64,000 nucleotides of DNA, taken from IMG/VR virus record IMGVR_UViG_2974502414_000001. One strand, given 5' to 3'. A program made the position numbers and the translations under genes. Source of the stretch: a virus. Lineage: Duplodnaviria; Heunggongvirae; Uroviricota; Caudoviricetes; Herelleviridae. The notes below the pieces were generated by a model. The model saw nothing but the letters and a program-made list of their open reading frames with translations. It was not told where the DNA came from and did not search any database. Positions 2,934 through 57,784 of the stretch are shown here, piece by piece (position 1 is the first letter of the stretch; the number at the start of each line of letters is the position of its first letter).

Positions 2934-3411
2934 TATATTTTTTTATAATTCTTCTAACGGTTATTTCACTTATATTATATTCCTTTGCTAACATAGGTTG
3001 AGTGTACTTTCTAGGCTTGTATTTGCTTGCTATGGCTTTTCTTTCATCTTCTGTTAATGCATAACCCCTATTATACCTATTGAAAGTATTGTCTTTATGG
3101 TGCCTTTTATTGTGTTCTGACGGGCTAATACATTCTAGGTTATCAATACAATTATTTTGTTTGTTACCGTCTATATGGTGTACATGGTTTGATTTAATAA
3201 AATCATTGCCAAAATATTCATATACAAGTCTATGCACCATGTGTTTTTTATTATTGACCCTTACGGTTAAATATCCGTCACGGTCTTGATGTACTTTACT
3301 CAACCTATCATTTATTTTTACCCTACCTAAATTAGAAACATAAAAATTATATTTATTAAAGTATTCTTTTTTTATAGGTTTCCAAATTTCATTAATTTTA
3401 TTTTCAACCAT
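2923..3411 (-). CDS. HNH homing endonuclease (NUMOD4-like N-terminus YVSNLGRVKI, HNH core HHIDGNKQNNCIDNLE) inserted antisense among early genes
   Basis: ORF track 162 aa; motif reading; own consensus promoter 3444-3472. Confidence 0.85.
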   Translation of the reverse strand: MVENKINEIWKPIKKEYFNKYNFYVSNLGRVKINDRLSKVHQDRDGYLTVRVNNKKHMVHRLVYEYFGNDFIKSNHVHHIDGNKQNNCIDNLECISPSEHNKRHHKDNTFNRYNRGYALTEDERKAIASKYKPRKYTQPMLAKEYNISEITVRRIIKKYKKD

Positions 3412-4094: not shown

Positions 4095-4427
4095 TTGATT
4101 ATAATGAAATTTATCAAAACTATCGAAAACTTATTAACTAAAGCAGAAAACAAAGGGCAAGCAATTTTAAACGGTCGTTATTATGACGGATATAGAAACG
4201 GTGAGCTTGAGGAAAAATATGCAATCGAAATTGATGGCAACAAATTAATTATGCGTCATTGGGGTACACAAACAATTGAGATTGACTTAAGCATAAATGA
4301 AATTGTTTCATACTATGGTGAAAGCAATTCAGACCGTGACAGTTTAAACACACTTGTATATTGCTTAGGAATTGCGCCAAACTTTAGATACTTACCAAGC
4401 AAAGACTTGTTCATTTACGAAAATTAA
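4095..4427 (+). CDS. hypothetical early protein (110 aa)
   Basis: ORF track; RBS aaaaggaattgattataATG. Confidence 0.55.
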   Translation: MIIMKFIKTIENLLTKAENKGQAILNGRYYDGYRNGELEEKYAIEIDGNKLIMRHWGTQTIEIDLSINEIVSYYGESNSDRDSLNTLVYCLGIAPNFRYLPSKDLFIYEN

Positions 4428-4432
4428 TTAAA

Positions 4433-4469
4433 TAAAGGGCTTGACTTTCAAGCCCTACCATGTTATTAT
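4433..4469 (+). promoter_or_regulatory. hairpin AGGGCTTGA-ctt-TCAAGCCCT overlapping -35 of promoter TTGACT-17-TATTAT
   Basis: TTGACT 4441-4446, TATTAT 4464-4469; stem 4433-4441 / 4445-4453. Confidence 0.55.
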
Positions 4470-12284: not shown

Positions 12285-12315
12285 CAAAAAAACACCTATT
12301 AGTTTAAATAGGTGT
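12285..12315 (-). terminator. intrinsic terminator ending the tRNA-Met operon transcript (hairpin ACACCTATT-agttta-AATAGGTGT plus T7 on minus strand)
   Basis: stem 12292-12300 / 12307-12315; plus-strand A-run 12285-12291. Confidence 0.7.
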
Positions 12316-12870
12316 CCGACAGAGCTCCCGTACTTAGATTACGGTTAATAATATTTTACGACAACTATATGAGACCCTCTGTCGTTGAAACTCTTGTCAC
12401 TGCGTTATTCCACAAGATATTTTAGAAGGTAGCTTGTGGAAGAAGATTGTTTTTAAAGGTACAATTAGCGTTTTTAAGCCTATTCGATACCCAGGACACT
12501 ATGTCCGTACTAACTATTACGTCAATAAAGGTTCTACGGTCTCAATTACCTACTCTTTATTGTTAAAACTAAAATTAAGCTTGAGTGCTCTAGAAGCCAA
12601 AATCAATTAATTAACTATAGATACGGAATGGAGGGGCACTACCATCCGGAGTCTACGGTCAGATACAAAGCCTCTGCCGGGCAACATACGGTATCTCTCG
12701 TACATCAGGTTGACTAGACCTTTAGAGTTTTTCACTCCTTCTCTTATAACCAGTAACTTAAGAGAAATAGGTTTTACTTAGTAGATATGAAACAATAAAT
12801 CCACATACAATATTAAATCATAGTCAAGTGATTGCACATATGTCTAACACCTATAAGTTTTTTGCTAGCC
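12316..12870 (-). ncRNA. candidate structured non-coding RNA segment (about 555 nt, locally about 45-50% GC) forming the 3' part of the tRNA-Met operon
   Basis: no ORF of 60 aa or more in any frame; several hairpins (e.g. CCGTA-atctaag-TACGG); lies between tRNA-Met and terminator on same strand. Confidence 0.3.
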
Positions 12871-12877
12871 TGGTATA

Positions 12878-12949
12878 TGGACTCTGCAGGATTCGAACCT
12901 ACAGTCAAACCGTTATGAGCGGTTGGCTTTACCTTTAAGCTAAGAGTCC
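12878..12949 (-). tRNA. trnM: tRNA-Met (anticodon CAT)
   Basis: manual cloverleaf: acceptor GGACTCT/AGAGTCC, D-stem GCTT/AAGC, anticodon stem AACCG/CGGTT with loop CTCATAA, T-arm GTAGG-TTCGAAT-CCTGC. Confidence 0.85.
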
Positions 12950-12956
12950 TAGAAAT

Positions 12957-13023
12957 ATCCTGAGAGAGGACTCGAACCTCAACGACTAGGTAGCTACATC
13001 TAGCCAATGCCATTACTCAGGAT
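12957..13023 (-). tRNA. tRNA-like element or degenerate tRNA (about 67 nt)
   Basis: canonical T-arm (TGAGG-TTCGAGT-CCTCT) and acceptor (TCCTGAG/CTCAGGA); a standard D-arm and 7-nt anticodon loop could not be folded; anticodon unresolved. Confidence 0.35.
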
Positions 13024-13203
13024 TGCTAGTAACGCTAAATAGAATTATAACGTTACCGTAGACCTTTTCTACGCTTGGTAGATAGGTAAAATATAATGAT
13101 TTCAAAGTACCCATATAGTTAGGCTCTTATTCTCATTATAAGGTTAAAAAGGCTAACTGTGTTTAGCATTATATAAGAGGCTTTAGTTAACTACTATACT
13201 AAT

Positions 13204-13232
13204 AATATACCATAAATTATACTTAATGTCAA
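13204..13232 (-). promoter_or_regulatory. promoter TTGACA-17-TATATT for tRNA-Met operon
   Basis: reverse complement of 13227-13232 = TTGACA, of 13204-13209 = TATATT; same GTCAAGTTAATTT box as the tRNA-Asp/Phe/Trp promoters. Confidence 0.5.
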
Positions 13233-13777
13233 GTTAATTTATCAATTGAATCTATAATTTTTGATGTGCTACGTATATCTGCTTCTTTACTATGTTTAAG
13301 GAGATATTTTAATTTCATTAAAAAAGAATTTTTTTCTTTTTCTATAATATCTTCTTTATCATCATATTCTGAAAACATAATGAATTCTATACCTATACTA
13401 TTTCTATTATGTGAAAACATATTTATAGAAAAAGGTGAATCAAAATTTTTATCATCTTTATTAATACTAAAGTCTTCAGTAACCTGTAAGTCATTTATTT
13501 CAGATATTTCAAAGTAACCATTAACTCTTTTAAGTTCAATATAACTATTGTATCTAAAGTAACGTTGTTCTTCTATTAACTTCTCTTTTGTTATATAAGG
13601 ATATTCATTTATGAATATAGGATTACTTGTTCCATAGTTATCTCTAATATATTCTGCATCCTCTAGGGAATCAGTATAACCTAAAATTTCATAACTTGTT
13701 GTATACACTGTATCTTCTTCCCACAAGTCATAGTCCATTTCCTCTATTTCTTCTTCTAATATATAAATTTTTTTCAT
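13229..13777 (-). CDS. hypothetical protein (182 aa)
   Basis: ORF track. Confidence 0.55.
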   Translation of the reverse strand: MKKIYILEEEIEEMDYDLWEEDTVYTTSYEILGYTDSLEDAEYIRDNYGTSNPIFINEYPYITKEKLIEEQRYFRYNSYIELKRVNGYFEISEINDLQVTEDFSINKDDKNFDSPFSINMFSHNRNSIGIEFIMFSEYDDKEDIIEKEKNSFLMKLKYLLKHSKEADIRSTSKIIDSIDKLT

Positions 13778-25572: not shown

Positions 25573-26461
25573 CTATAGTATCTCCTTTTTCTTCTAAAAT
25601 TTCTCTTAAAATATGTGGCATTTTTTTCTTAATTTGTTTATCTACTATTTTCAGTATATTTTCTTTTTCTTCTTCCATAATATCATCAACAAAGTTTTGA
25701 CCTACTTGTTTCATAATTAGACCGAAGTTTTCTAATTCTAAATCATCTTCAGATAATCTATCTTCTTCTATAGCCCTAAAAATCATTTTTTCCATTCTTG
25801 CTCTTGTAATGGCATAATCTGCCACTGACTCGTTCTTTTTTACTTCTGTTTTCATTTTTTGACGACTAAATTCTTTAAACTCATTAGATACTAATTTAAA
25901 GTAGTCATCATATTCTGATTTACCATCTAAGTATTTAATTACTATACCTTCACCCTTATCAGGTTTAACTGTCATGTCAGATTTTCCTACTAATTCTTGA
26001 ATTTCTTCAGGTTTTAAATCATTTAAGTAGTGAGATGGTTTAGATACTAGCAAAGTTTTAACGGTTTTTAACCCTAAATGATGTGCAATTACATTCATGT
26101 CTTCTACTGATAAATAAACTTCATTTTCTTTATCATAAACATCAAATACATAAAAATTGTTGTAAAATTCTTCTTTGTACTGAATCTTATGTTTGACTAA
26201 CCATTCACCAAAAATAATGTATTTTTCTAAGGCTGATACGTACGTATTTCTTACATTTATATTTTCATGTACCCAATCATAAAAACCATTTAAAGTTTCA
26301 TTCTCATTTAATTTTTTTCTACGTGAAAAACATACTAATTCACCATTTTCTACTGTGAAGCTTGCATTACTTCCATCTAATTTTTCTTGTACAACTAGAC
26401 CTCTTTCTTTAAATTTATCTAGTACAATACCTTTATTTTTTACTTTAGTATACGATTTCAT
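25565..26461 (-). CDS. RNA ligase (Rnl2-like nucleotidyltransferase)
   Basis: 298 aa; motif I KLDGSN, motif IV EGIVIK. Confidence 0.7.
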   Translation of the reverse strand: MKSYTKVKNKGIVLDKFKERGLVVQEKLDGSNASFTVENGELVCFSRRKKLNENETLNGFYDWVHENINVRNTYVSALEKYIIFGEWLVKHKIQYKEEFYNNFYVFDVYDKENEVYLSVEDMNVIAHHLGLKTVKTLLVSKPSHYLNDLKPEEIQELVGKSDMTVKPDKGEGIVIKYLDGKSEYDDYFKLVSNEFKEFSRQKMKTEVKKNESVADYAITRARMEKMIFRAIEEDRLSEDDLELENFGLIMKQVGQNFVDDIMEEEKENILKIVDKQIKKKMPHILREILEEKGDTIDG

Positions 26462-26685
26462 TAATTATCCTCCTTTGAATTATGTACTATAGAAAACAAA
26501 ATAAGACTTACGCTTGCTAAAAATGCTAATACTACTAAACCAGGTAAATTTAAAACTGTTGATAAGAATAATGATATTGCACTTATAACATAAACTAGAC
26601 CGCTTAGAAATAAAGTTAATAATACAATTGTTATAAGTTTCACCAACCAATTGTTATTAATAAATACCTTAGCTAAATAATTCAT
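26461..26685 (-). CDS. small membrane protein (74 aa)
   Basis: ORF track; 2 TM. Confidence 0.5.
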   Translation of the reverse strand: MNYLAKVFINNNWLVKLITIVLLTLFLSGLVYVISAISLFLSTVLNLPGLVVLAFLASVSLILFSIVHNSKEDN

Positions 26686-26715
26686 AAAAAAATCCTCCTT
26701 AGTTATTATAGAATA

Positions 26716-26744
26716 ATTATACCATAACTAAGGGGATTTGTCAA
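26716..26744 (-). promoter_or_regulatory. promoter TTGACA-17-TATAAT
   Basis: reverse-complement reading. Confidence 0.55.
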
Positions 26745-26753
26745 CATATTATT

Positions 26754-27494
26754 TTACCATTTAAAATTATCTGCATATTGTGCAAGCTTAGAGCGGAAAT
26801 TAACTGTAAAATTATGAAATACTGCTCCTTCATAATTTTTAAAGTATTCCATATAATCTCCAAAACCTGATTTACTTTCGTTCTTTAAATCTATTTGTTT
26901 AAAATTACCTTCTACTATTACAGTAGAATTTTTTGTATGAACCCTTGTAAGAACTTTTTTAAGTTCACTACGTTTAAAGTTCTGTGCTTCATTTATAATT
27001 ATAGTAGCATCTCTTAGATTTCCACCTCTTAGGAATAGATGGGATATTTGAGATACCCAACAATCTCCTAGTTTATCTTCTTTAACATTATCTTCCATCA
27101 TTAACATTTCAGTTATTTGTTGTTCAGGATTCATATTAAGTTCAATAAGGGCATCATGTAATCCCATGAAATAAGCCATTTCTTTTTCTGTCTGATTACC
27201 TGGTCTGCTTCCTAAATCTTCTGATACTGGTGAAATTATAAATACTAGCTTTCTATTTTTATTAAGATAGTCTGCGTAAGCACAGGCTACTGAGCACATT
27301 GTTTTACCTGTACCGGCTTGACTCTCATTCCAAAGTATTTCAACATTATCATTAAAGAAATCCTCACAGAAATCTAACTGCTCGGTTGTAGCTTTTTCAA
27401 GGAATTCATTAAAGACTAGATGTTCTCCCATGTTGTATCTTACATTAGGATAATCTTTTAACTTAAAGTCTAACTCTTTTAGTTGTATTGCCAT
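26754..27494 (-). CDS. phoH: PhoH-like ATPase
   Basis: 246 aa; Walker A QAGTGKT. Confidence 0.8.
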   Translation of the reverse strand: MAIQLKELDFKLKDYPNVRYNMGEHLVFNEFLEKATTEQLDFCEDFFNDNVEILWNESQAGTGKTMCSVACAYADYLNKNRKLVFIISPVSEDLGSRPGNQTEKEMAYFMGLHDALIELNMNPEQQITEMLMMEDNVKEDKLGDCWVSQISHLFLRGGNLRDATIIINEAQNFKRSELKKVLTRVHTKNSTVIVEGNFKQIDLKNESKSGFGDYMEYFKNYEGAVFHNFTVNFRSKLAQYADNFKW

Positions 27495-35749: not shown

Positions 35750-35935
35750 TTACTCATTAATTTGGTTTAGTTTTTTGATAACTTCAGACATTTGTTTGTT
35801 ATCTAAATCTTCTAATTTAGTTTCAGGAAGTAGCTCTAACTTATCCCAAACTTCTTCTTTATTAGATACTTTATTATTAATAATTGCCTTACCAACTAAA
35901 CTTTCCGTATAATATAATTGTTTTGCTGATGCCAT
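35750..35935 (-). CDS. hypothetical protein (61 aa)
   Basis: ORF track; RBS AAAGGAGAG. Confidence 0.5.
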   Translation of the reverse strand: MASAKQLYYTESLVGKAIINNKVSNKEEVWDKLELLPETKLEDLDNKQMSEVIKKLNQINE

Positions 35936-36096
35936 TTGTATCTCTCCTTTTAAATATGTAAAGTATATAGCTAGTATCGTATCCTAGGAACAAACACTTG
36001 CGCTATATACTCAATGAAATCCTACCCTCATTCGAGGACACAGCAAACCGGTTCGTCAACCGCACATATGAATTCTCAGATTTCATTTATGTAAAA

Positions 36097-36168
36097 CACA
36101 CCCTCTTTGATTTGCACAAAGACTAAGGGTTTTGGAGACCCTTGTACTACTAATTATACTAAGGGTGT
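36097..36168 (-). tRNA. trnW: tRNA-Trp (anticodon CCA) with non-canonical T-loop TGCAAAT
   Basis: manual fold: acceptor ACACCCT/AGGGTGT, D-stem GTAT/GTAC, anticodon stem AGGGT/ACCCT, loop CTCCAAA, T-stem CTTTG/CAAAG. Confidence 0.7.
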
Positions 36169-36174
36169 TTATTA

Positions 36175-36247
36175 TGGTTTCTATTGGATTTGAACCAATG
36201 ACACCTAGAGCTTCAATCTAGTGCTCTACCATCTGAGCTAAGAAACC
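36175..36247 (-). tRNA. trnF: tRNA-Phe (anticodon GAA)
   Basis: GGTTTCTTAGCTCAGATGGTAGAGCACTAGATTGAAGCTCTAGGTGTCATTGGTTCAAATCCAATAGAAACC. Confidence 0.9.
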
Positions 36248-36253
36248 TTAAAA

Positions 36254-36327
36254 CGACCCATACGAGACTCGAACTCGTACTCTCTGCCGTGACAGGGCAG
36301 TGTGTTAACCAGTTACACCAATGAGCC
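36254..36327 (-). tRNA. trnD: tRNA-Asp (anticodon GTC)
   Basis: acceptor GGCTCAT/ATGGGTC (two GU pairs), D-stem GTGT/ACAC, anticodon stem CTGCC/GGCAG with loop CTGTCAC, T-arm ACGAG-TTCGAGT-CTCGT. Confidence 0.85.
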
Positions 36328-36329
36328 AA

Positions 36330-37426
36330 AATTATAATGCTATACCCTAACCTTACCTTAATGTATAGCAGGTTTTTATATAAGCTCGAAGCAACGATTA
36401 TTACCACTCATAACAACTATATATTAAGTGAAAGGAGGTGAAATGAACAAAACGTGGTAATTGGTACTTATATAGGAAATATGTATAATCTACAAGGAGT
36501 AAGTTATTGGTTCATAAAGGAGTGTGAACAATAAATACATGAAAGAGTGAAAGTTTACTCCCTGTAGATTCTTTTTTTAATTATCAATCAAAGGAGGAAA
36601 CTGATAATTGTTAATAATAAACTATAAAGAGGAAAATATTTATAGTCACATTCTGATATAATGCAACTAAATATCCAAGCATAACCCGTCTCACGAGGAA
36701 CCTACCTATAAGACCTGTTATTAAGTGAATCACTACGATTGACTCTATTAAGGAGCTACCTTAAGTCCATCTCACGCAATTTAAAAGGGACTTACAAACC
36801 GTAAAACGGTAATAAGTTTATTAAATAATGTGATATTAACATATTAGTTAATAACTTTCACATGGTCGAAGAAAAGTAAATTTATTTGATTACCAAATTA
36901 TTTTTATCAAATATAGCTCTTTTGAACCTGTAGATTTATGCTACTTATACTGATAACCTCTATTATCTAACACATTTCTGTGCTCCAACTACAGTTAGTC
37001 GTTACAGCGTATCTTTCTAGGATTCCGCTAAGACCCTAAAAAGAAATTAAACCCTAGCCGTTATCATACTCTACAGACCTTATAAGTAAGTACCAAGTAT
37101 ACCAATCGTATTTAACAATACTAATGACGACCCATCCTACCGATATATCTCCGATAGGTTTTGATTCGTTTGATTATCTTGTACCTTATGACTACCAAAT
37201 CATTATTCAGTCACTATGCTCAGATATTTAGTTGTATTATTTATATATTAATTATAACATAATTTTTATTACTTGTCAAGTTAATTTCAAAAAAATTATA
37301 GAAGTAGGGACGTTTACCTACTTCTATTTAATTTACACAAGGATGATAACATTGTTATTGTTTTATACTGGAAAACAATGTAATAAAAACAGTGATGTGT
37401 AAGGTATTTGTTTTATTGTTAATTAT
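36330..37426 (-). ncRNA. about 1.1-kb ORF-free leader of the tRNA-Asp/Phe/Trp transcript, candidate structured RNA
   Basis: no ORF of 60 aa or more in 36408-37481; heterogeneous GC; 13-bp inverted repeat 36487-36499 / 36563-36575 plus T-run; two consensus promoters upstream. Confidence 0.3.
37251..37279 (-). promoter_or_regulatory. consensus promoter TTGACA-17-TATAAT (proximal tRNA-operon promoter)
   Basis: reverse complement of 37274-37279 = TTGACA, of 37251-37256 = TATAAT. Confidence 0.65.
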
Positions 37427-37455
37427 ATTATAGCATATACTGATACCTTTGTCAA
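37427..37455 (-). promoter_or_regulatory. consensus promoter TTGACA-17-TATAAT (distal tRNA-operon promoter)
   Basis: reverse complement of 37450-37455 = TTGACA, of 37427-37432 = TATAAT; shares box CTTGTCAAGTTAATTT with 37267 and 13228. Confidence 0.65.
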
Positions 37456-37481
37456 GTTAATTTAATACTTTTTTTAAAACA

Positions 37482-37700
37482 TTAGTTATCTTTTGTTAGT
37501 TCCTCCTGAATAGCATCCCATCTTCTTTCTGCTTCACTACGATTATCTTCTATATGTTTTGTAGTTTTACAACATTTGATACAATATATATCTTTGATAT
37601 GACCTTCTTCTCTTTTATTTGCTCTTTTTCTTGGTACTTTGAATACATTTCCACATTCTTTACATATTAAACTTGAGTAAAACATTTTTTGTCTTTTCAT
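37482..37700 (-). CDS. small C4 zinc-ribbon protein (72 aa)
   Basis: CKECGN...CIKCCK; RBS aaaaggaattgattaattATG identical to early-gene RBS family. Confidence 0.55.
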   Translation of the reverse strand: MKRQKMFYSSLICKECGNVFKVPRKRANKREEGHIKDIYCIKCCKTTKHIEDNRSEAERRWDAIQEELTKDN

Positions 37701-37824
37701 AATTAATCAATTCCTTTTCTCTTTTATTTGATAATTTAACTATATACTATATTGATAAATAAGTCAACAGTTTTCTAAAAATAATTTAAATTATTTTGAA
37801 GAATACTTTAATATCAAGGGTTAC

Positions 37825-38130
37825 AAGAGAAAAAGTACGTATTTAGAAAATAAGGAGTACTCCTATTATATATAATTATATTCTGATATAGAGTAATAAA
37901 TAATATTAAATATATAATTATAATTAATAAGGTTGGGAAAATTGATATAAACATAACTGATACTGCTTATAGATACTCAGTATAAAAGTAAAATCCCTTA
38001 GTATCAGTACTTACAGGCAAAAAAGTACGTATTTAGAAAATAAGGAGCTCTCCTATTATAGTTATATATATTTATTACTATTATTAATTACTATTTAAAT
38101 ATATAATTATAATTAACAATGTTAGAAAGT
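37825..38130. repeat. two about 110-bp direct-repeat units (37825-37940; 38015-38130), each with a 10-bp palindrome (GGAGTACTCC vs GGAGCTCTCC); inverted repeat CTGATACT/AGTATCAG (37956 / 38002) between them
   Basis: read directly: AAAAAGTACGTATTTAGAAAATAAGGAG(TA/CT)CTCCTATTATA occurs twice, 190 bp apart. Confidence 0.7.
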
Positions 38131-38177
38131 CAACAATAGTATAAATAAAAAAGTGACTACTTAAAGTCACTCAATAA

Positions 38178-38387
38178 TTAGAATACTATTTTAAAAGATT
38201 CTATTCTGTTTGGATTAATATATACTTGAGGTGAAGTTATAGCACTTTCAGTATATACTTTTATAGAGGTTTCATCCATTCCTCTTAACATATAATCTAT
38301 ATCTTGCCTATTGTAACTCTTTTCATCAGTAGATACTAAAAAGTATTTAGCTCCACTTGACATTGTTATTTCAATATGTTTTGACAT
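38178..38387 (-). CDS. hypothetical protein (69 aa)
   Basis: ORF track. Confidence 0.5.
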   Translation of the reverse strand: MSKHIEITMSSGAKYFLVSTDEKSYNRQDIDYMLRGMDETSIKVYTESAITSPQVYINPNRIESFKIVF

Positions 38388-38399
38388 CTACAATCTCTC

Positions 38400-38732
38400 C
38401 TATGCAAATTTGTTAAAGACAAAGGATAATATAGCTCCTAGAACAAGTAAAAGAACCTTCTCAGTTGTATCCTTTTTCTTAGTATCCTTAGTTTTTGTAC
38501 TTTCAGCAAGTTCTGAAATCTTTTCATCAAGTCTTTCTAATTGGACGTAAATTGCTGATTGTTTTTCACTATTGACAGCTACATCTTTATCTATACTAAC
38601 TATCATTTTTCTTAGTTCAGCTACCTCAACTTCTAAATCTTTGAAAGTTCCTCTATCTATATAATTACCTTCTTGTATCTTAGACTTAATAGTTTCTACT
38701 TGAGAAACAAGGTTGTTTATCTCCTTATCCAA
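38400..38732 (-). CDS. coiled-coil protein with C-terminal TM anchor (110 aa, TTG start)
   Basis: ORF track; RBS AGAGGTGA 6 nt before TTG. Confidence 0.5.
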   Translation of the reverse strand: MDKEINNLVSQVETIKSKIQEGNYIDRGTFKDLEVEVAELRKMIVSIDKDVAVNSEKQSAIYVQLERLDEKISELAESTKTKDTKKKDTTEKVLLLVLGAILSFVFNKFA

Positions 38733-38744
38733 CTAGAATCACCT

Positions 38745-39107
38745 CTAAGGTCTAACCGTTTCAGATTCAGAATGGATATCATAATTTTCTAAGAAATCAT
38801 TGATAATCTCCATATAATTATCCGTAACGACTTTTCCGTAAGATGTTTTTGTATCAATTTCAAACCTAAGCTTACCAAAACTTTGGAGGTCTAATTCTTT
38901 TATTACAATATTAGGGTCATCAGAAGGAAGGTAATAATAGTCGAAGTATATAATTGAGCCATTTATTAATACTCTGTCTATTCTATAGACGTGGAAATAG
39001 CGTCTGTCTCTTTTAAAATGGGCTAGTGCATCTTTAAACTCTAACTTAAGGATATCCTTATATTTAGTAAAAGTGGTAACCTCCTTACTATTAATTTTTA
39101 AATTTAC
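38745..39107 (-). pseudogene. 120-codon open frame with strong RBS (AAGGAGG, minus-strand 39086-39080) but no ATG/GTG/TTG start; overlaps upstream ORF out of frame
   Basis: manual translation ...TTFTKYKDILKLEFKDALAHFKRDRRYFHVYRIDRVLINGSIIYFDYYYLPSDDPNIVIKELDLQSFGKLRFEIDTKTSYGKVVTDNYMEIINDFLENYDIHSESETVRP; protein-like composition. Confidence 0.35.
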
Positions 39108-56785: not shown

Positions 56786-57142
56786 ATGGCATCAGAAGCT
56801 AAACAAACCGTCCATACTGGTAATACCGTCCTACTTATGATTAAAGGTAAACCGGTAGGAAGAGCACAATCAGCATCAGGTCAACGTGAATACGGTACAA
56901 CTGGTGTATACGAAATCGGTTCTATCATGCCTCAAGAACACGTATACTTACGTTATGAAGGTACAATTACAGTAGAACGTTTACGTATGAAAAAAGAAAA
57001 CTTTGCAGATTTAGGATATGCTTCACTTGGTGAAGAAATTCTTAAGAAAGACATCATTGATATTTTAGTAGTAGATAACTTAACAAAACAAGTTATTATT
57101 TCATATCATGGTTGTAGTGCTAATAACTACAACGAGACATAA
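56786..57142 (+). CDS. tail tube protein
   Basis: 118 aa; immediately after sheath; recognised sequence. Confidence 0.8.
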   Translation: MASEAKQTVHTGNTVLLMIKGKPVGRAQSASGQREYGTTGVYEIGSIMPQEHVYLRYEGTITVERLRMKKENFADLGYASLGEEILKKDIIDILVVDNLTKQVIISYHGCSANNYNET

Positions 57143-57186
57143 CTTTTTTCTGCTGTGTCTCTGTACAGTGATGTATAACAAAAAAA

Positions 57187-57609
57187 CCCTTCTAATTCAT
57201 GGGAACCCTTAACAGATAATGCTGAAGGCAATCATGAGCCAAGCCTAGTAAAGTACTAGGAAGGTGCAACGACTAGAGAAAAGATAGTTTACTGTTATAG
57301 GCAGTAAATGAAAACTGAGTATCGTACATCTAAGTAGATGGAAATGGAGGGATTCCTAAAGTAACGTTTAGGAATGTGATATAGTCTAGTCTATATGGAA
57401 ACATATAGAAGGTAAGAAGTAACGACTCTTATCGTAATAATAACAGGCAGACCAATGAAATCGTAACTGAAGAAATTGAGTAGAAGAATGCTCCTTTAAC
57501 TAGAAATAGTTATAGCAAATCCCTTTAATTCATGGGAACCCTTAACAGATAATGCTGAAGGCAATCATGAGCCAAGCCTAGTAAAGTACTAGGAAGGTGC
57601 AACGACTAG
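57187..57609 (+). repeat. tandem pair of about 334-bp ORF-free modules; 90-bp near-identical cores at 57187-57276 and 57521-57609 (1 difference), each with hairpin CCTAGTA-aag-TACTAGG
   Basis: read directly; tails diverged but alignable, with compensatory hairpin GGATTCCTAAA/TTTAGGAATG vs ACACCTT/AAGGTGA. Confidence 0.75.
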
Positions 57610-57784
57610 TCAGAATGACGTACATCTAAGCAGATGGAAATAGGGGACACCTTCAATATTAAGGTGAAGATATAGTCTGAACTATATAGAAATATATAGA
57701 AGGTTCAAGAGTAGCGTTTTGAATCGTAACAAATTTGTTTCTTATTTAACAGCTAGTGATAAAGCCCGTACCTAAAGGGTTTAA

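What the first reader, a model, noticed from the sequence alone, without database searches (positions are those of the whole stretch)
35940..37460. tRNA-Asp/Phe/Trp operon with two tandem consensus promoters and a ~1.1-kb ORF-free leader, just upstream of the lysis cassette
Two perfect minus-strand TTGACA-17-TATAAT promoters (37427-37455 and 37251-37279) share the box CTTGTCAAGTTAATTT. Both point into about 1.1 kb with no ORF of 60 aa or more (36408-37481).

Three tightly packed tRNAs follow: Asp-GTC, Phe-GAA, and Trp-CCA. tRNA-Trp was found only by manual folding because its T-loop is TGCAAAT. Downstream come a 61-aa gene, the holin and lysK.

The leader has locally elevated GC. It carries a 13-bp inverted repeat (CTACAAGGAGTAA...TTACTCCCTGTAG, 36487-36575) followed by a T-run. 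It also has many short hairpins.

A leader this long and this strongly promoted in a compact phage suggests an undescribed structured RNA or a regulatory region. It may link tRNA supply to lysis timing.
Basis: seen in the sequence. Interest (0 to 1): 0.6.

Follow-up and report, generated by a model that had tools for sequence, protein, structure and literature searches.

The report
Divergent ROOL RNA gene in Kayvirus
The "empty leader" upstream of the phage tRNAs is a separate gene for a very abundant, intricately folded ~580-nt RNA, already seen in phage K transcriptomes as lncRNA2, which I show is a divergent member of the ROOL class of phage RNAs that self-assemble into hollow RNA cages.

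Summary
In detail: two 12/12 promoters, no ORF of 60 aa or more, three tRNAs, then a 61-aa gene, holin and lysK. The window is a Staphylococcus Kayvirus, 100% identical to phage 812/A5W/Team1.

The "leader" is not a leader. Promoter P2 (37279-37251) drives a discrete ~582-nt RNA (window 37239-36658, minus strand). Three RNA-seq studies already report it as lncRNA2/lnc002, among the most abundant phage transcripts.

Seventeen homologues from eight Twortvirinae lineages give 131 base pairs. Of the cells, 98% are canonical (37-41% in slid controls), and 87 pairs show compensatory changes.

A covariance model built only from its central domain finds a Listeria phage homologue (87 bits), which coincides with CKA15's most-transcribed non-coding region. 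It also finds about 25 metagenomic loci; Rfam calls the 16 of them that I scanned ROOL (RF03087).

Given only the RNA, Rfam's ROOL model aligns end to end: 36.5 bits for Kayvirus and 91.5 bits for Listeria, against a gathering score of 99.1.

So this is a divergent ROOL subfamily that standard scans miss. The proposed link to lysis timing is not supported, because the holin has its own late promoter. ROOL function remains unknown.

The parts
36658..37239 (-). ROOL-class RNA gene (the published lncRNA2/lnc002), about 582 nt measured between the outer ends of the closing helix
   Evidence: Covariation on alignment A1: 131 pairs, 98% canonical, 87 compensatory. Rfam ROOL aligns to 36668-37233, model positions 1-574, at 36.5 bits, E 8.6e-6. 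The RNA-seq block of phage K, 38,024-38,566, corresponds to window 36673-37215 (offset taken).
37214..37239 (-). 5' strand of the closing helix (ROOL outermost helix); pairs with 36658-36683
   Evidence: Reverse-complement blast matches. Helix 1 of A1 has 24 pairs, 14 of them with compensatory changes.
36658..36683 (-). 3' strand of the closing helix
36927..37072 (-). Conserved central domain: UGUAG-UUGGAGC, a GAAA-capped hairpin, GAUAAU, GUAnAAGUAGCAnAAA, CUACA. It includes a pseudoknot (UGUAG/CUACA).
   Evidence: Model R1 scores 165.5 bits here. The same model hits Listeria phage List-36 (87 bits) and loci that Rfam calls ROOL. The pseudoknot is kept at 5-6 of 6 pairs in 25 of 26 sequences.
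36868..36926 (-). Variable A/U-rich linker, equivalent to the disordered ROOL linker. It is closed by the helix GCAU/AUGU.
   Evidence: Poorly alignable columns 379-449 of A1. The closing pair covaries perfectly: C-G in 9 sequences, U-A in 8. The ROOL linker is described in PMC12286853.
37251..37279 (-). Promoter P2, the promoter of the ROOL/lncRNA2 unit
   Evidence: 12/12 consensus. Listed as the lncRNA promoter at phage K 38602-38630 in Table S1 of PMC11598898.
37427..37455 (-). Promoter P1, driving a separate short unit
   Evidence: 12/12 consensus. A P1-like promoter is conserved upstream in most other genera examined.
37288..37421 (-). P1 unit: a predicted ~130-nt small RNA. It has a hairpin with the conserved loop GUUUUCCAGUAUAAAACAAUAAC, then an intrinsic terminator (hairpin 37298-37327 plus a U-run).
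   Evidence: Fold z-score -4.1. The motif is unique in the window. Its stem covaries between genera, and in Baoshanvirus the element lies downstream of ROOL. The terminator is shown.
36329..36657 (-). Spacer between ROOL and tRNA-Asp, conserved only in Kayvirus-like phages. It holds a weak A/U hairpin with a U-tail (36613-36646), the 13-bp inverted repeat (36487-36575) and four CCUCC motifs.
   Evidence: Blast conservation. Spacer comparison across phages. Fold z-score -4.1.
36253..36328 (-). tRNA-Asp (GTC)
36175..36247 (-). tRNA-Phe (GAA)
36097..36168 (-). tRNA-Trp (CCA)
37482..37700 (-). Upstream syntenic gene gp191/Iro: a 72-aa zinc-ribbon protein (PHROG 1257, annotated 'ribosome associated inhibitor A')
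   Evidence: Homologues sit next to the RNA in all Twortvirinae loci fetched, and about 400 nt downstream of it in Listeria phage List-36.

Best explanation
The ORF-free interval contains a gene for a divergent ROOL-class RNA.

How it is made:
- Promoter P2 starts transcription about 5 nt upstream of a 24-bp helix that pairs the 5' and 3' ends of a ~582-nt RNA.
- That RNA folds into the multi-junction, pseudoknotted ROOL architecture.
- It accumulates to several per cent of all infected-cell reads.
- Transcription that continues past its 3' end crosses a 330-nt spacer and supplies tRNA-Asp, tRNA-Phe and tRNA-Trp.

Inferred steps:
- The 3' end is made either by weak termination at the A/U hairpin at 36613-36646 or by trimming back to the closing helix. 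In Silviavirus, RNase P cleavage of the abutting tRNA-Ser would do the same job.
- By homology with the ROOL env-120 RNA solved by cryo-EM, the RNA most likely assembles without protein into a homo-octameric hollow cage, with the variable linker inside.

The biological role of such cages is unknown. I favour a stoichiometric, trans-acting role during infection, such as sequestering or shielding a translation-related component (tRNA or ribosome), over any cis-regulatory role.

P1 is a separate unit that makes a small conserved hairpin RNA ending at its own terminator.
For: Shown here:
- Conservation: the interval matches 330 phage records, and the core is about 70% identical between genera.
- Structure: 131 pairs in 17 helices, 98.0% canonical cells against 37-41% with slid partners. 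There are 87 compensatory pairs against 13-23 slid and 56 +/- 3.6 shuffled; 0 of 500 shuffles reach the observed value.
- No ORF is conserved in position or strand across the homologues.
- Listeria homologue: model R1, built only from Twortvirinae, hits Listeria phage List-36 at 87.4 bits, E 1e-19. That locus was fetched through Iro protein homology, so the hit is independent of any RNA pattern.
- Canonical ROOL: R1 hits about 25 IMG/VR loci. Rfam calls the 16 of them that I scanned ROOL, at 110-345 bits, and in the six loci compared position by position R1 lies at about positions 207-364 of the ROOL element.
- Reverse direction: Rfam ROOL aligns over its full length to the Kayvirus RNA (36.5 bits, E 8.6e-6, the only family hit) and to the Listeria RNA (91.5 bits, E 3e-19).
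- Features outside the model: the pseudoknot UGUAG/CUACA was in neither the model nor the search pattern, yet it covaries across all three groups. The helix that closes the linker also covaries.

From the literature:
- lncRNA2 takes 8.4% of CPM in phage 515A1 (PMC7698491).
- It has the highest read count in phage K (PMC9241854).
- The two lncRNAs together take 27% of reads, and P2 is the assigned promoter (PMC11598898).
- The Listeria homologue (CKA15 26188-26758) coincides with the region 26,236-26,727, one of those with the highest read counts (PMC12282133).
- ROOL forms a D4 octameric cage about 280 A across, with a disordered internal linker (PMC12286853).
Against: - The Kayvirus RNA scores only 36.5 bits with RF03087 (gathering score 99.1). 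It was invisible in the 64-kb and 1.7-kb Rfam scans and in five other genera.
- One ROOL hairpin (model positions ~109-135) is absent, and the region corresponding to model positions ~207-290 is replaced by a single long hairpin.
- The IMG/VR ROOL loci were pre-selected with a motif taken from this RNA, which inflates the R1 scores of those loci.
- Cage assembly, the exact RNA ends and any function are untested here.
- tRNA adjacency, typical of ROOL, is missing in Sepunavirus, Twortvirus and Sciuriunavirus.
Confidence: 0.85

Rival explanations
1. One reading: the 1.1 kb is a long cis-acting leader of the tRNA operon that tunes tRNA supply and couples it to lysis timing.
For: P2, the RNA, the spacer and the tRNAs lie on one strand with no strong terminator between them. 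One study draws the transcription unit from P2 to a terminator beyond lysK.
Against: - The RNA is closed on itself by a 5'/3' helix and is conserved where no tRNA follows.
- It accumulates far above the downstream tRNAs.
- No riboswitch, T-box or attenuator family matches.
- Holin/lysK expression depends on its own late promoter.
- It is homologous to ROOL, a free-standing RNA.
Confidence: 0.05
2. The RNA is an independent, Herelleviridae-specific class of structured RNA that only resembles ROOL by convergence or through a shared sub-motif.
For: The ROOL score is low (36.5 bits) with large replaced regions. The link to IMG/VR ROOLs came from a motif-based preselection.
Against: - Every major ROOL helix has a counterpart in the same order.
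- The signature strings match: UGAAnAA, GGUnC, UUGA-(GAAA hairpin)-AUAA, GUAnAAGUAGC, GUGAAAGUU, GGUnGCUCC.
- The Listeria RNA bridges the two groups: 91.5 bits to ROOL and 87.4 bits to the Twortvirinae core.
- The pseudoknot is shared.
Confidence: 0.07
3. The interval encodes small proteins, as several GenBank records annotate it (4-7 'hypothetical proteins').
For: Some records annotate short CDSs here.
Against: - ORFs of 30 aa or more differ in strand and position between lineages, and one homologue has none.
- Substitutions follow base-pairing, not codon structure.
- The CKA15 authors also withdrew their CDS calls for the Listeria homologue.
Confidence: 0.02

Closest known systems
ROOL RNA (Rfam RF03087; Weinberg et al. 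2017, PMC5737381; cryo-EM in Kretsch et al. 2025, PMC12286853)
   Same: - Length about 580 nt, with a closing helix between the 5' and 3' ends.
- Same order of helices and the same signature sequences.
- A pseudoknot and a variable internal linker closed by a helix.
- Phage-encoded, often next to tRNAs, and extremely abundant.
   Different: - Below the Rfam gathering score: 36.5 bits for Kayvirus, 91.5 for Listeria phage.
- One ROOL hairpin is lost, and one multi-stem region is replaced by a single long hairpin.
- Carried by strictly lytic Herelleviridae of Staphylococcus and Listeria.
- Not always next to a tRNA.
- The L18-like loop is extended to the palindromes AGCU, UAGCUA or UUGCAA.
Kayvirus lncRNA2 / lnc002 (PMC7698491, PMC9241854, PMC11598898)
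   Same: The same locus and transcript. The phage K coordinates 38,024-38,566 and 37,679-38,832 map onto this interval.
   Different: Those papers report abundance, a promoter and a positional resemblance to GOLLD/ROOL. They give no structure, no covariation and no demonstration of homology.
GOLLD RNA (RF01998)
   Same: A large phage RNA near tRNAs that forms an RNA-only cage.
   Different: No sequence or structure match at E up to 10. GOLLD is longer (over 800 nt) and has a different fold.
Highly transcribed non-coding region of Listeria phage CKA15 (PMC12282133)
   Same: A true homologue: 87 bits to the Twortvirinae core. It has its own consensus promoter and a closing helix.
   Different: Its authors suggested siRNA or Y RNA. 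It lies between a tRNA and gp170/tRNA-Met/Iro rather than upstream of the lysis genes.

Membership tests
ROOL RNA (RF03087) | Reaches the Rfam gathering score (99.1 bits) | tested here: not met
   36.5 bits, E 8.6e-6, and only when the 606-nt stretch is searched alone. No hit in the 64-kb or 1.7-kb scans. The Listeria homologue scores 91.5 bits.
ROOL RNA (RF03087) | Full-length match to the ROOL consensus helices and signature sequences, in order | tested here: met
   The cmscan alignment covers model positions 1-574. My independently derived helices 1, 3, 4, 5/6, 7, 8/9, 10, 13, 16 and 17 coincide with ROOL helices. One hairpin is missing and one region is replaced.
ROOL RNA (RF03087) | Structure supported by covariation | tested here: met
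   98% canonical cells and 87 of 131 pairs compensatory, against 13-23 in slid controls. For the core across Twortvirinae, Listeria phage and canonical ROOL: 89.5% paired and 28 of 30 pairs compensatory (that alignment is fitted to the model).
ROOL RNA (RF03087) | Pseudoknots | tested here: met
   UGUAG/CUACA crosses helix 10 and covaries. The other ROOL pseudoknots were not mapped individually.
ROOL RNA (RF03087) | Variable internal linker enclosed by a conserved helix | tested here: met
   Columns 379-449 of A1 are not alignable. The closing pair 369-454 is C-G in 9 sequences and U-A in 8.
ROOL RNA (RF03087) | Reciprocal detection: a model of this RNA finds accepted ROOL members | tested here: met
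   R1 hits loci that Rfam scores at 110-345 bits as ROOL; in the six loci compared position by position R1 lies at about positions 207-364 of the ROOL element. Caveat: those loci were pre-selected with a motif from this RNA.
ROOL RNA (RF03087) | Phage or prophage location, commonly beside tRNAs | tested here: met
   Kayvirus has Asp/Phe/Trp downstream, Silviavirus has tRNA-Ser 7 nt downstream, and Listeria phage has a tRNA upstream. No adjacent tRNA in Sepunavirus, Twortvirus or Sciuriunavirus.
ROOL RNA (RF03087) | Protein-free homo-octameric cage | not testable with these tools
   Indirect evidence only. The L18-like loop stays palindromic while changing: UAGCU, UAGCUA, UUGCAA, UCGCU. That is the signature used for symmetric kissing loops in PMC12286853.
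GOLLD RNA (RF01998) | Match to the GOLLD covariance model | tested here: not met
   No hit at E up to 10 in the window or in six homologous loci.
cis-regulatory leader (T-box, riboswitch, attenuator) | Match to a known leader family, or dependence on a downstream gene | tested here: not met
   No such Rfam match. The RNA is conserved with different or no downstream tRNAs.

The most novel reading that the evidence does not exclude
Herelleviridae carry a distinct ROOL subfamily that forms RNA cages during strictly lytic infection.

- The cages would act on the translation apparatus, for example by enclosing or shielding the co-transcribed phage tRNAs or ribosomes from host defences.
- The palindrome-swapping L18 loop would be the first covariation evidence for the inter-half-shell bridge B6.
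- Because phage K has time-resolved transcriptomes and CRISPR-Cas9 engineering, this locus would make the unknown function of ROOL directly testable.
- The neighbouring P1 hairpin RNA and the modular 'lncRNA1' would be further undescribed small phage RNAs belonging to the same non-coding RNA island.
Probability: 0.3. Interest if true: 0.75.

Novelty: new member of a known kind. Interest (0 to 1): 0.5.

Why it matters
ROOL and GOLLD are among the largest bacterial and phage RNAs with no known function. Their cage structures were solved only in 2025, on environmental sequences with no genetic system.

This work places a bona fide but divergent ROOL in phage K-like therapeutic phages and in Listeria P100/A511-like biocontrol phages. 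Three things follow:
- It explains the most abundant unexplained transcript of these phages.
- It shows that the standard Rfam threshold misses a whole subfamily, present in about 380 sequenced phage genomes.
- It gives an experimentally tractable lytic system in which to delete or mutate the RNA.

It also corrects spurious "hypothetical protein" annotations in many GenBank records.

Tried and rejected
- Rfam at gathering threshold on the window, at E up to 10 on 35900-37600, and at E up to 10 on six homologous loci gave nothing for this RNA. Only the tight 606-nt search revealed ROOL.
- blastn of lncRNA1 against lncRNA2 found no similarity. A tight Rfam scan of lncRNA1 found no ROOL or GOLLD, only a weak DUF3800-I hit.
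- The first IMG/VR pattern scan, plus one metagenome scan and one genome scan, returned only known Twortvirinae lineages and chance matches.
- gp191/Iro and the 61-aa ORF have no informative domains. Iro homology was useful only as a way to reach the Listeria and Bacillus loci. Bacillus phage BM15 has no long non-coding gap next to Iro and no R1 hit.
- Small-ORF hypothesis rejected.
- The HNH endonuclease insertion in phiSA12 lies after the tRNAs, not in the RNA.
- The inverted repeat as a terminator of this operon is rejected, because its T-run is on the opposite strand.
- Literature searches found no paper that demonstrates ROOL homology or a structure for the Kayvirus RNA. A 2023 review asserts sequence similarity without giving data.

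Full report
**Identity of the window.** The interval 35940-37480 is 100% identical to many Staphylococcus Kayvirus genomes (phage 812, A5W, Team1, Sb-1 and others). Phage K coordinates equal window coordinates plus 1351.

**Check of the observation.**
- Two 12/12 sigma-70-type promoters lie on the minus strand at 37455-37427 (P1) and 37279-37251 (P2).
- No ORF of 60 aa or more lies in 36408-37481.
- ARAGORN and Rfam both find tRNA-Asp, tRNA-Phe and tRNA-Trp at 36253-36328, 36175-36247 and 36097-36168.
- A 61-aa ORF, the holin and the first lysK exon follow.
- GC is modestly raised.
- The 13-bp inverted repeat exists.

Four points need correction.
1. A strong terminator hairpin with a T-run (37327-37298) separates P1 from P2.
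2. The shared box is AAATTAACTTGACAA. It recurs, with one mismatch, at the promoter of the tRNA-Met/lncRNA1 unit (13226-13240).
3. tRNA-Trp is detected without difficulty.
4. The T-run next to the inverted repeat is on the non-transcribed strand.

**Prior knowledge.** Three RNA-seq studies had already found that this interval gives one of the most abundant phage transcripts.
- "lncRNA2" takes 8.4% of CPM in phage 515A1 (PMC7698491).
- "lnc002", at phage K 37679-38832, has the highest read count (PMC9241854).
- A 543-nt block at phage K 38,024-38,566 (window 36673-37215) accounts, together with lncRNA1, for 27% of reads. P2 is its assigned promoter, and the hairpin at 38644-38675 is the terminator of the upstream gp191 unit (PMC11598898).
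- These papers noted only a resemblance to GOLLD/ROOL in position and abundance. A review claimed sequence similarity without data.
- The holin/lysK unit depends on its own late promoter.

**The RNA and its structure.**
- blastn shows the interval in 330 phage records. A ~530-nt core is about 70% identical between genera, whereas the last 330 nt before tRNA-Asp are confined to Kayvirus-like phages.
- The 5' end of the core (37239-37214) is complementary to its 3' end (36683-36658).
- I aligned 17 homologues from Kayvirus, Silviavirus, Sciuriunavirus, Twortvirus, Baoshanvirus, Sepunavirus and unclassified lineages, 54-100% identical.
- RNAalifold plus one manually added pseudoknot gives 131 pairs in 17 helices.
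- 98.0% of cells are canonical, against 37-41% when partners are slid.
- 87 pairs carry compensatory changes, against 13-23 slid and 56 +/- 3.6 in shuffles; 0 of 500 shuffles reach the observed value.
- ORFs of 30 aa or more are not conserved in strand or position.

This is therefore a genuine, elaborately folded RNA of about 582 nt. Transcription starts a few nucleotides upstream of its closing helix.

**Link to ROOL.** Initial Rfam scans gave nothing. I then built model R1 (146 positions, 30 pairs) from the central domain of the Twortvirinae sequences only.
- R1 hit Listeria phage List-36 at 87.4 bits, E 1e-19. That locus was fetched through homology of the neighbouring Iro protein. The hit lies inside a 1.07-kb unannotated gap.
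- The Listeria RNA (about 3074-3627 of L043) has its own TTGACA-17-TATAGT promoter and a closing helix.
- It is present in 53 Listeria phage records. [quoted passage not shown]
- A motif shared by the Staphylococcus and Listeria RNAs was scanned over IMG/VR. R1 hit about 25 of the 113 new loci, about half of them on contigs of 120-206 kb.
- Rfam at gathering threshold calls the 16 of those loci that I scanned ROOL, at 110-345 bits. In the six loci I compared position by position, R1 lies at about positions 207-364 of the ROOL element.
- Given only the 606-nt stretch, Rfam's ROOL model aligns end to end with the Kayvirus RNA (36668-37233, 36.5 bits, E 8.6e-6, the only family reported).
- It aligns with the Listeria RNA at 91.5 bits, E 3e-19. 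The gathering score is 99.1.

The alignment matches these features in order:
- the closing helix;
- the UGAAnAA internal loop with its hairpin;
- GGUnC;
- the long helices 8-10;
- UUGA, the GAAA-capped hairpin and AUAA;
- GUAnAAGUAGC;
- the linker;
- GUGAAAGUU;
- the GGUnGCUCC hairpin;
- a GNRA-type hairpin near the 3' end.

Two features that were in neither R1 nor the search pattern behave as homology predicts. The pseudoknot UGUAG/CUACA is kept at 5-6 of 6 pairs in 25 of 26 sequences, with variants such as UGUCG/CGACA, CGUUG/CAACG and GUGCAG/CUGCAC. The helix that closes the variable linker covaries perfectly.

Differences from canonical ROOL: one hairpin is absent, and a multi-stem region is replaced by a single long hairpin.

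**Mechanism.**
- Shown: a self-contained ROOL-class RNA, its promoter, and its conservation with or without downstream tRNAs.
- From the literature: extreme abundance, and assembly of ROOL env-120 into a D4 homo-octameric cage about 280 A across with a disordered internal linker (PMC12286853).
- Inferred: the Kayvirus RNA assembles in the same way.
- One small piece of support: the loop equivalent to ROOL L18 (symmetric bridge B6) stays palindromic while it changes. It is UAGCU in Kayvirus and Listeria phage, UAGCUA in Silviavirus and Sepunavirus, UUGCAA in Sciuriunavirus, and UCGCU in Twort (as in the Rfam consensus).
- The biological function is unknown. A trans-acting, stoichiometric role fits the abundance better than a cis-regulatory one.

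**The rest of the interval.**
- P1 drives a predicted ~130-nt RNA (37421-37288). It consists of a hairpin with the conserved loop GUUUUCCAGUAUAAAACAAUAAC and a terminator (z-score -4.1).
- The stem of that hairpin covaries between genera. In Baoshanvirus the element lies downstream of ROOL.
- In Sepunavirus I found no P2-like promoter, so P1 may drive ROOL there (inference).
- The spacer 36657-36329 is predicted to fold stably. It carries the inverted repeat, with a compensatory change in EW9, and four CCUCC motifs. Its role is unexplained.

**Verdict.** It is not undescribed, it is not a leader, and it is not tied to lysis timing. It is a new, divergent member of a known class.

Noticed in passing
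window 12290-12877 (- strand), directly 3' of tRNA-Met at 12878-12949: The second abundant Kayvirus transcript, 'lncRNA1', looks modular rather than being one large RNA. Separate ~90-120-nt blocks recur independently in Twort, S2G3, PG-2021_47, EW1 and PG-2021_2. One block sits downstream of the ROOL homologue in Baoshanvirus BS2 (L005 2360-2464). The 3' block gives a weak DUF3800-I hit (30 bits against a gathering score of 44.2). There is no ROOL or GOLLD match.
   Followed up: partly
window 37288-37421 (- strand): A P1-driven small hairpin RNA with the conserved 23-nt loop GUUUUCCAGUAUAAAACAAUAAC and its own terminator. The stem covaries between genera, and the element's position relative to ROOL differs in Baoshanvirus.
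   Followed up: partly
window 36329-36657 (- strand): Four CCUCC motifs lie on the transcribed strand. One of them, CACCUCCUUUC, matches the 3' end of Bacillales 16S rRNA as I recall it (not checked with a tool). On the opposite strand they read as strong Shine-Dalgarno sites followed by 2-17-codon mini-ORFs. Similar motifs occur in the Baoshanvirus spacer.
   Followed up: partly
window 13216-13245 and 12950-13060 (- strand): The tRNA-Met/lncRNA1 promoter shares the AAATTAACTTGACA box with P1 and P2. A degenerate tRNA-like sequence with an intact T-arm (GAGGTTCGAGTCCTCTC) lies just upstream of tRNA-Met and is not called by ARAGORN.
   Followed up: no
window 57131-57408 and 57472-57699 (+ strand): Two adjacent group I intron matches, at 78 and 92 bits.
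   Followed up: no
L002 (Silviavirus remus) 4357-4446: A RAGATH-18 RNA (63.8 bits) lies next to an annotated transposase, between the ROOL/tRNA-Ser unit and the holin.
   Followed up: no
L043 (Listeria phage List-36) 2640-3017 and 674-1296: There are further promoter-led non-coding stretches and a tRNA at 2943-3017 that the record does not annotate. A Ro60-like 'RNA-binding protein' and an RtcB ligase lie nearby. CKA15 has three highly transcribed non-coding regions in this area.
   Followed up: no
L112 3980-4091, L149 306-402, L094 3038-3134: drum RNAs (RF02958) lie in the same tRNA/ROOL islands of large uncultivated phages.
   Followed up: no
L011 (phage Stab23), A1 columns 115-160: A 45-nt insertion forms an extra hairpin inside the loop of ROOL helix 6.
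   Followed up: no
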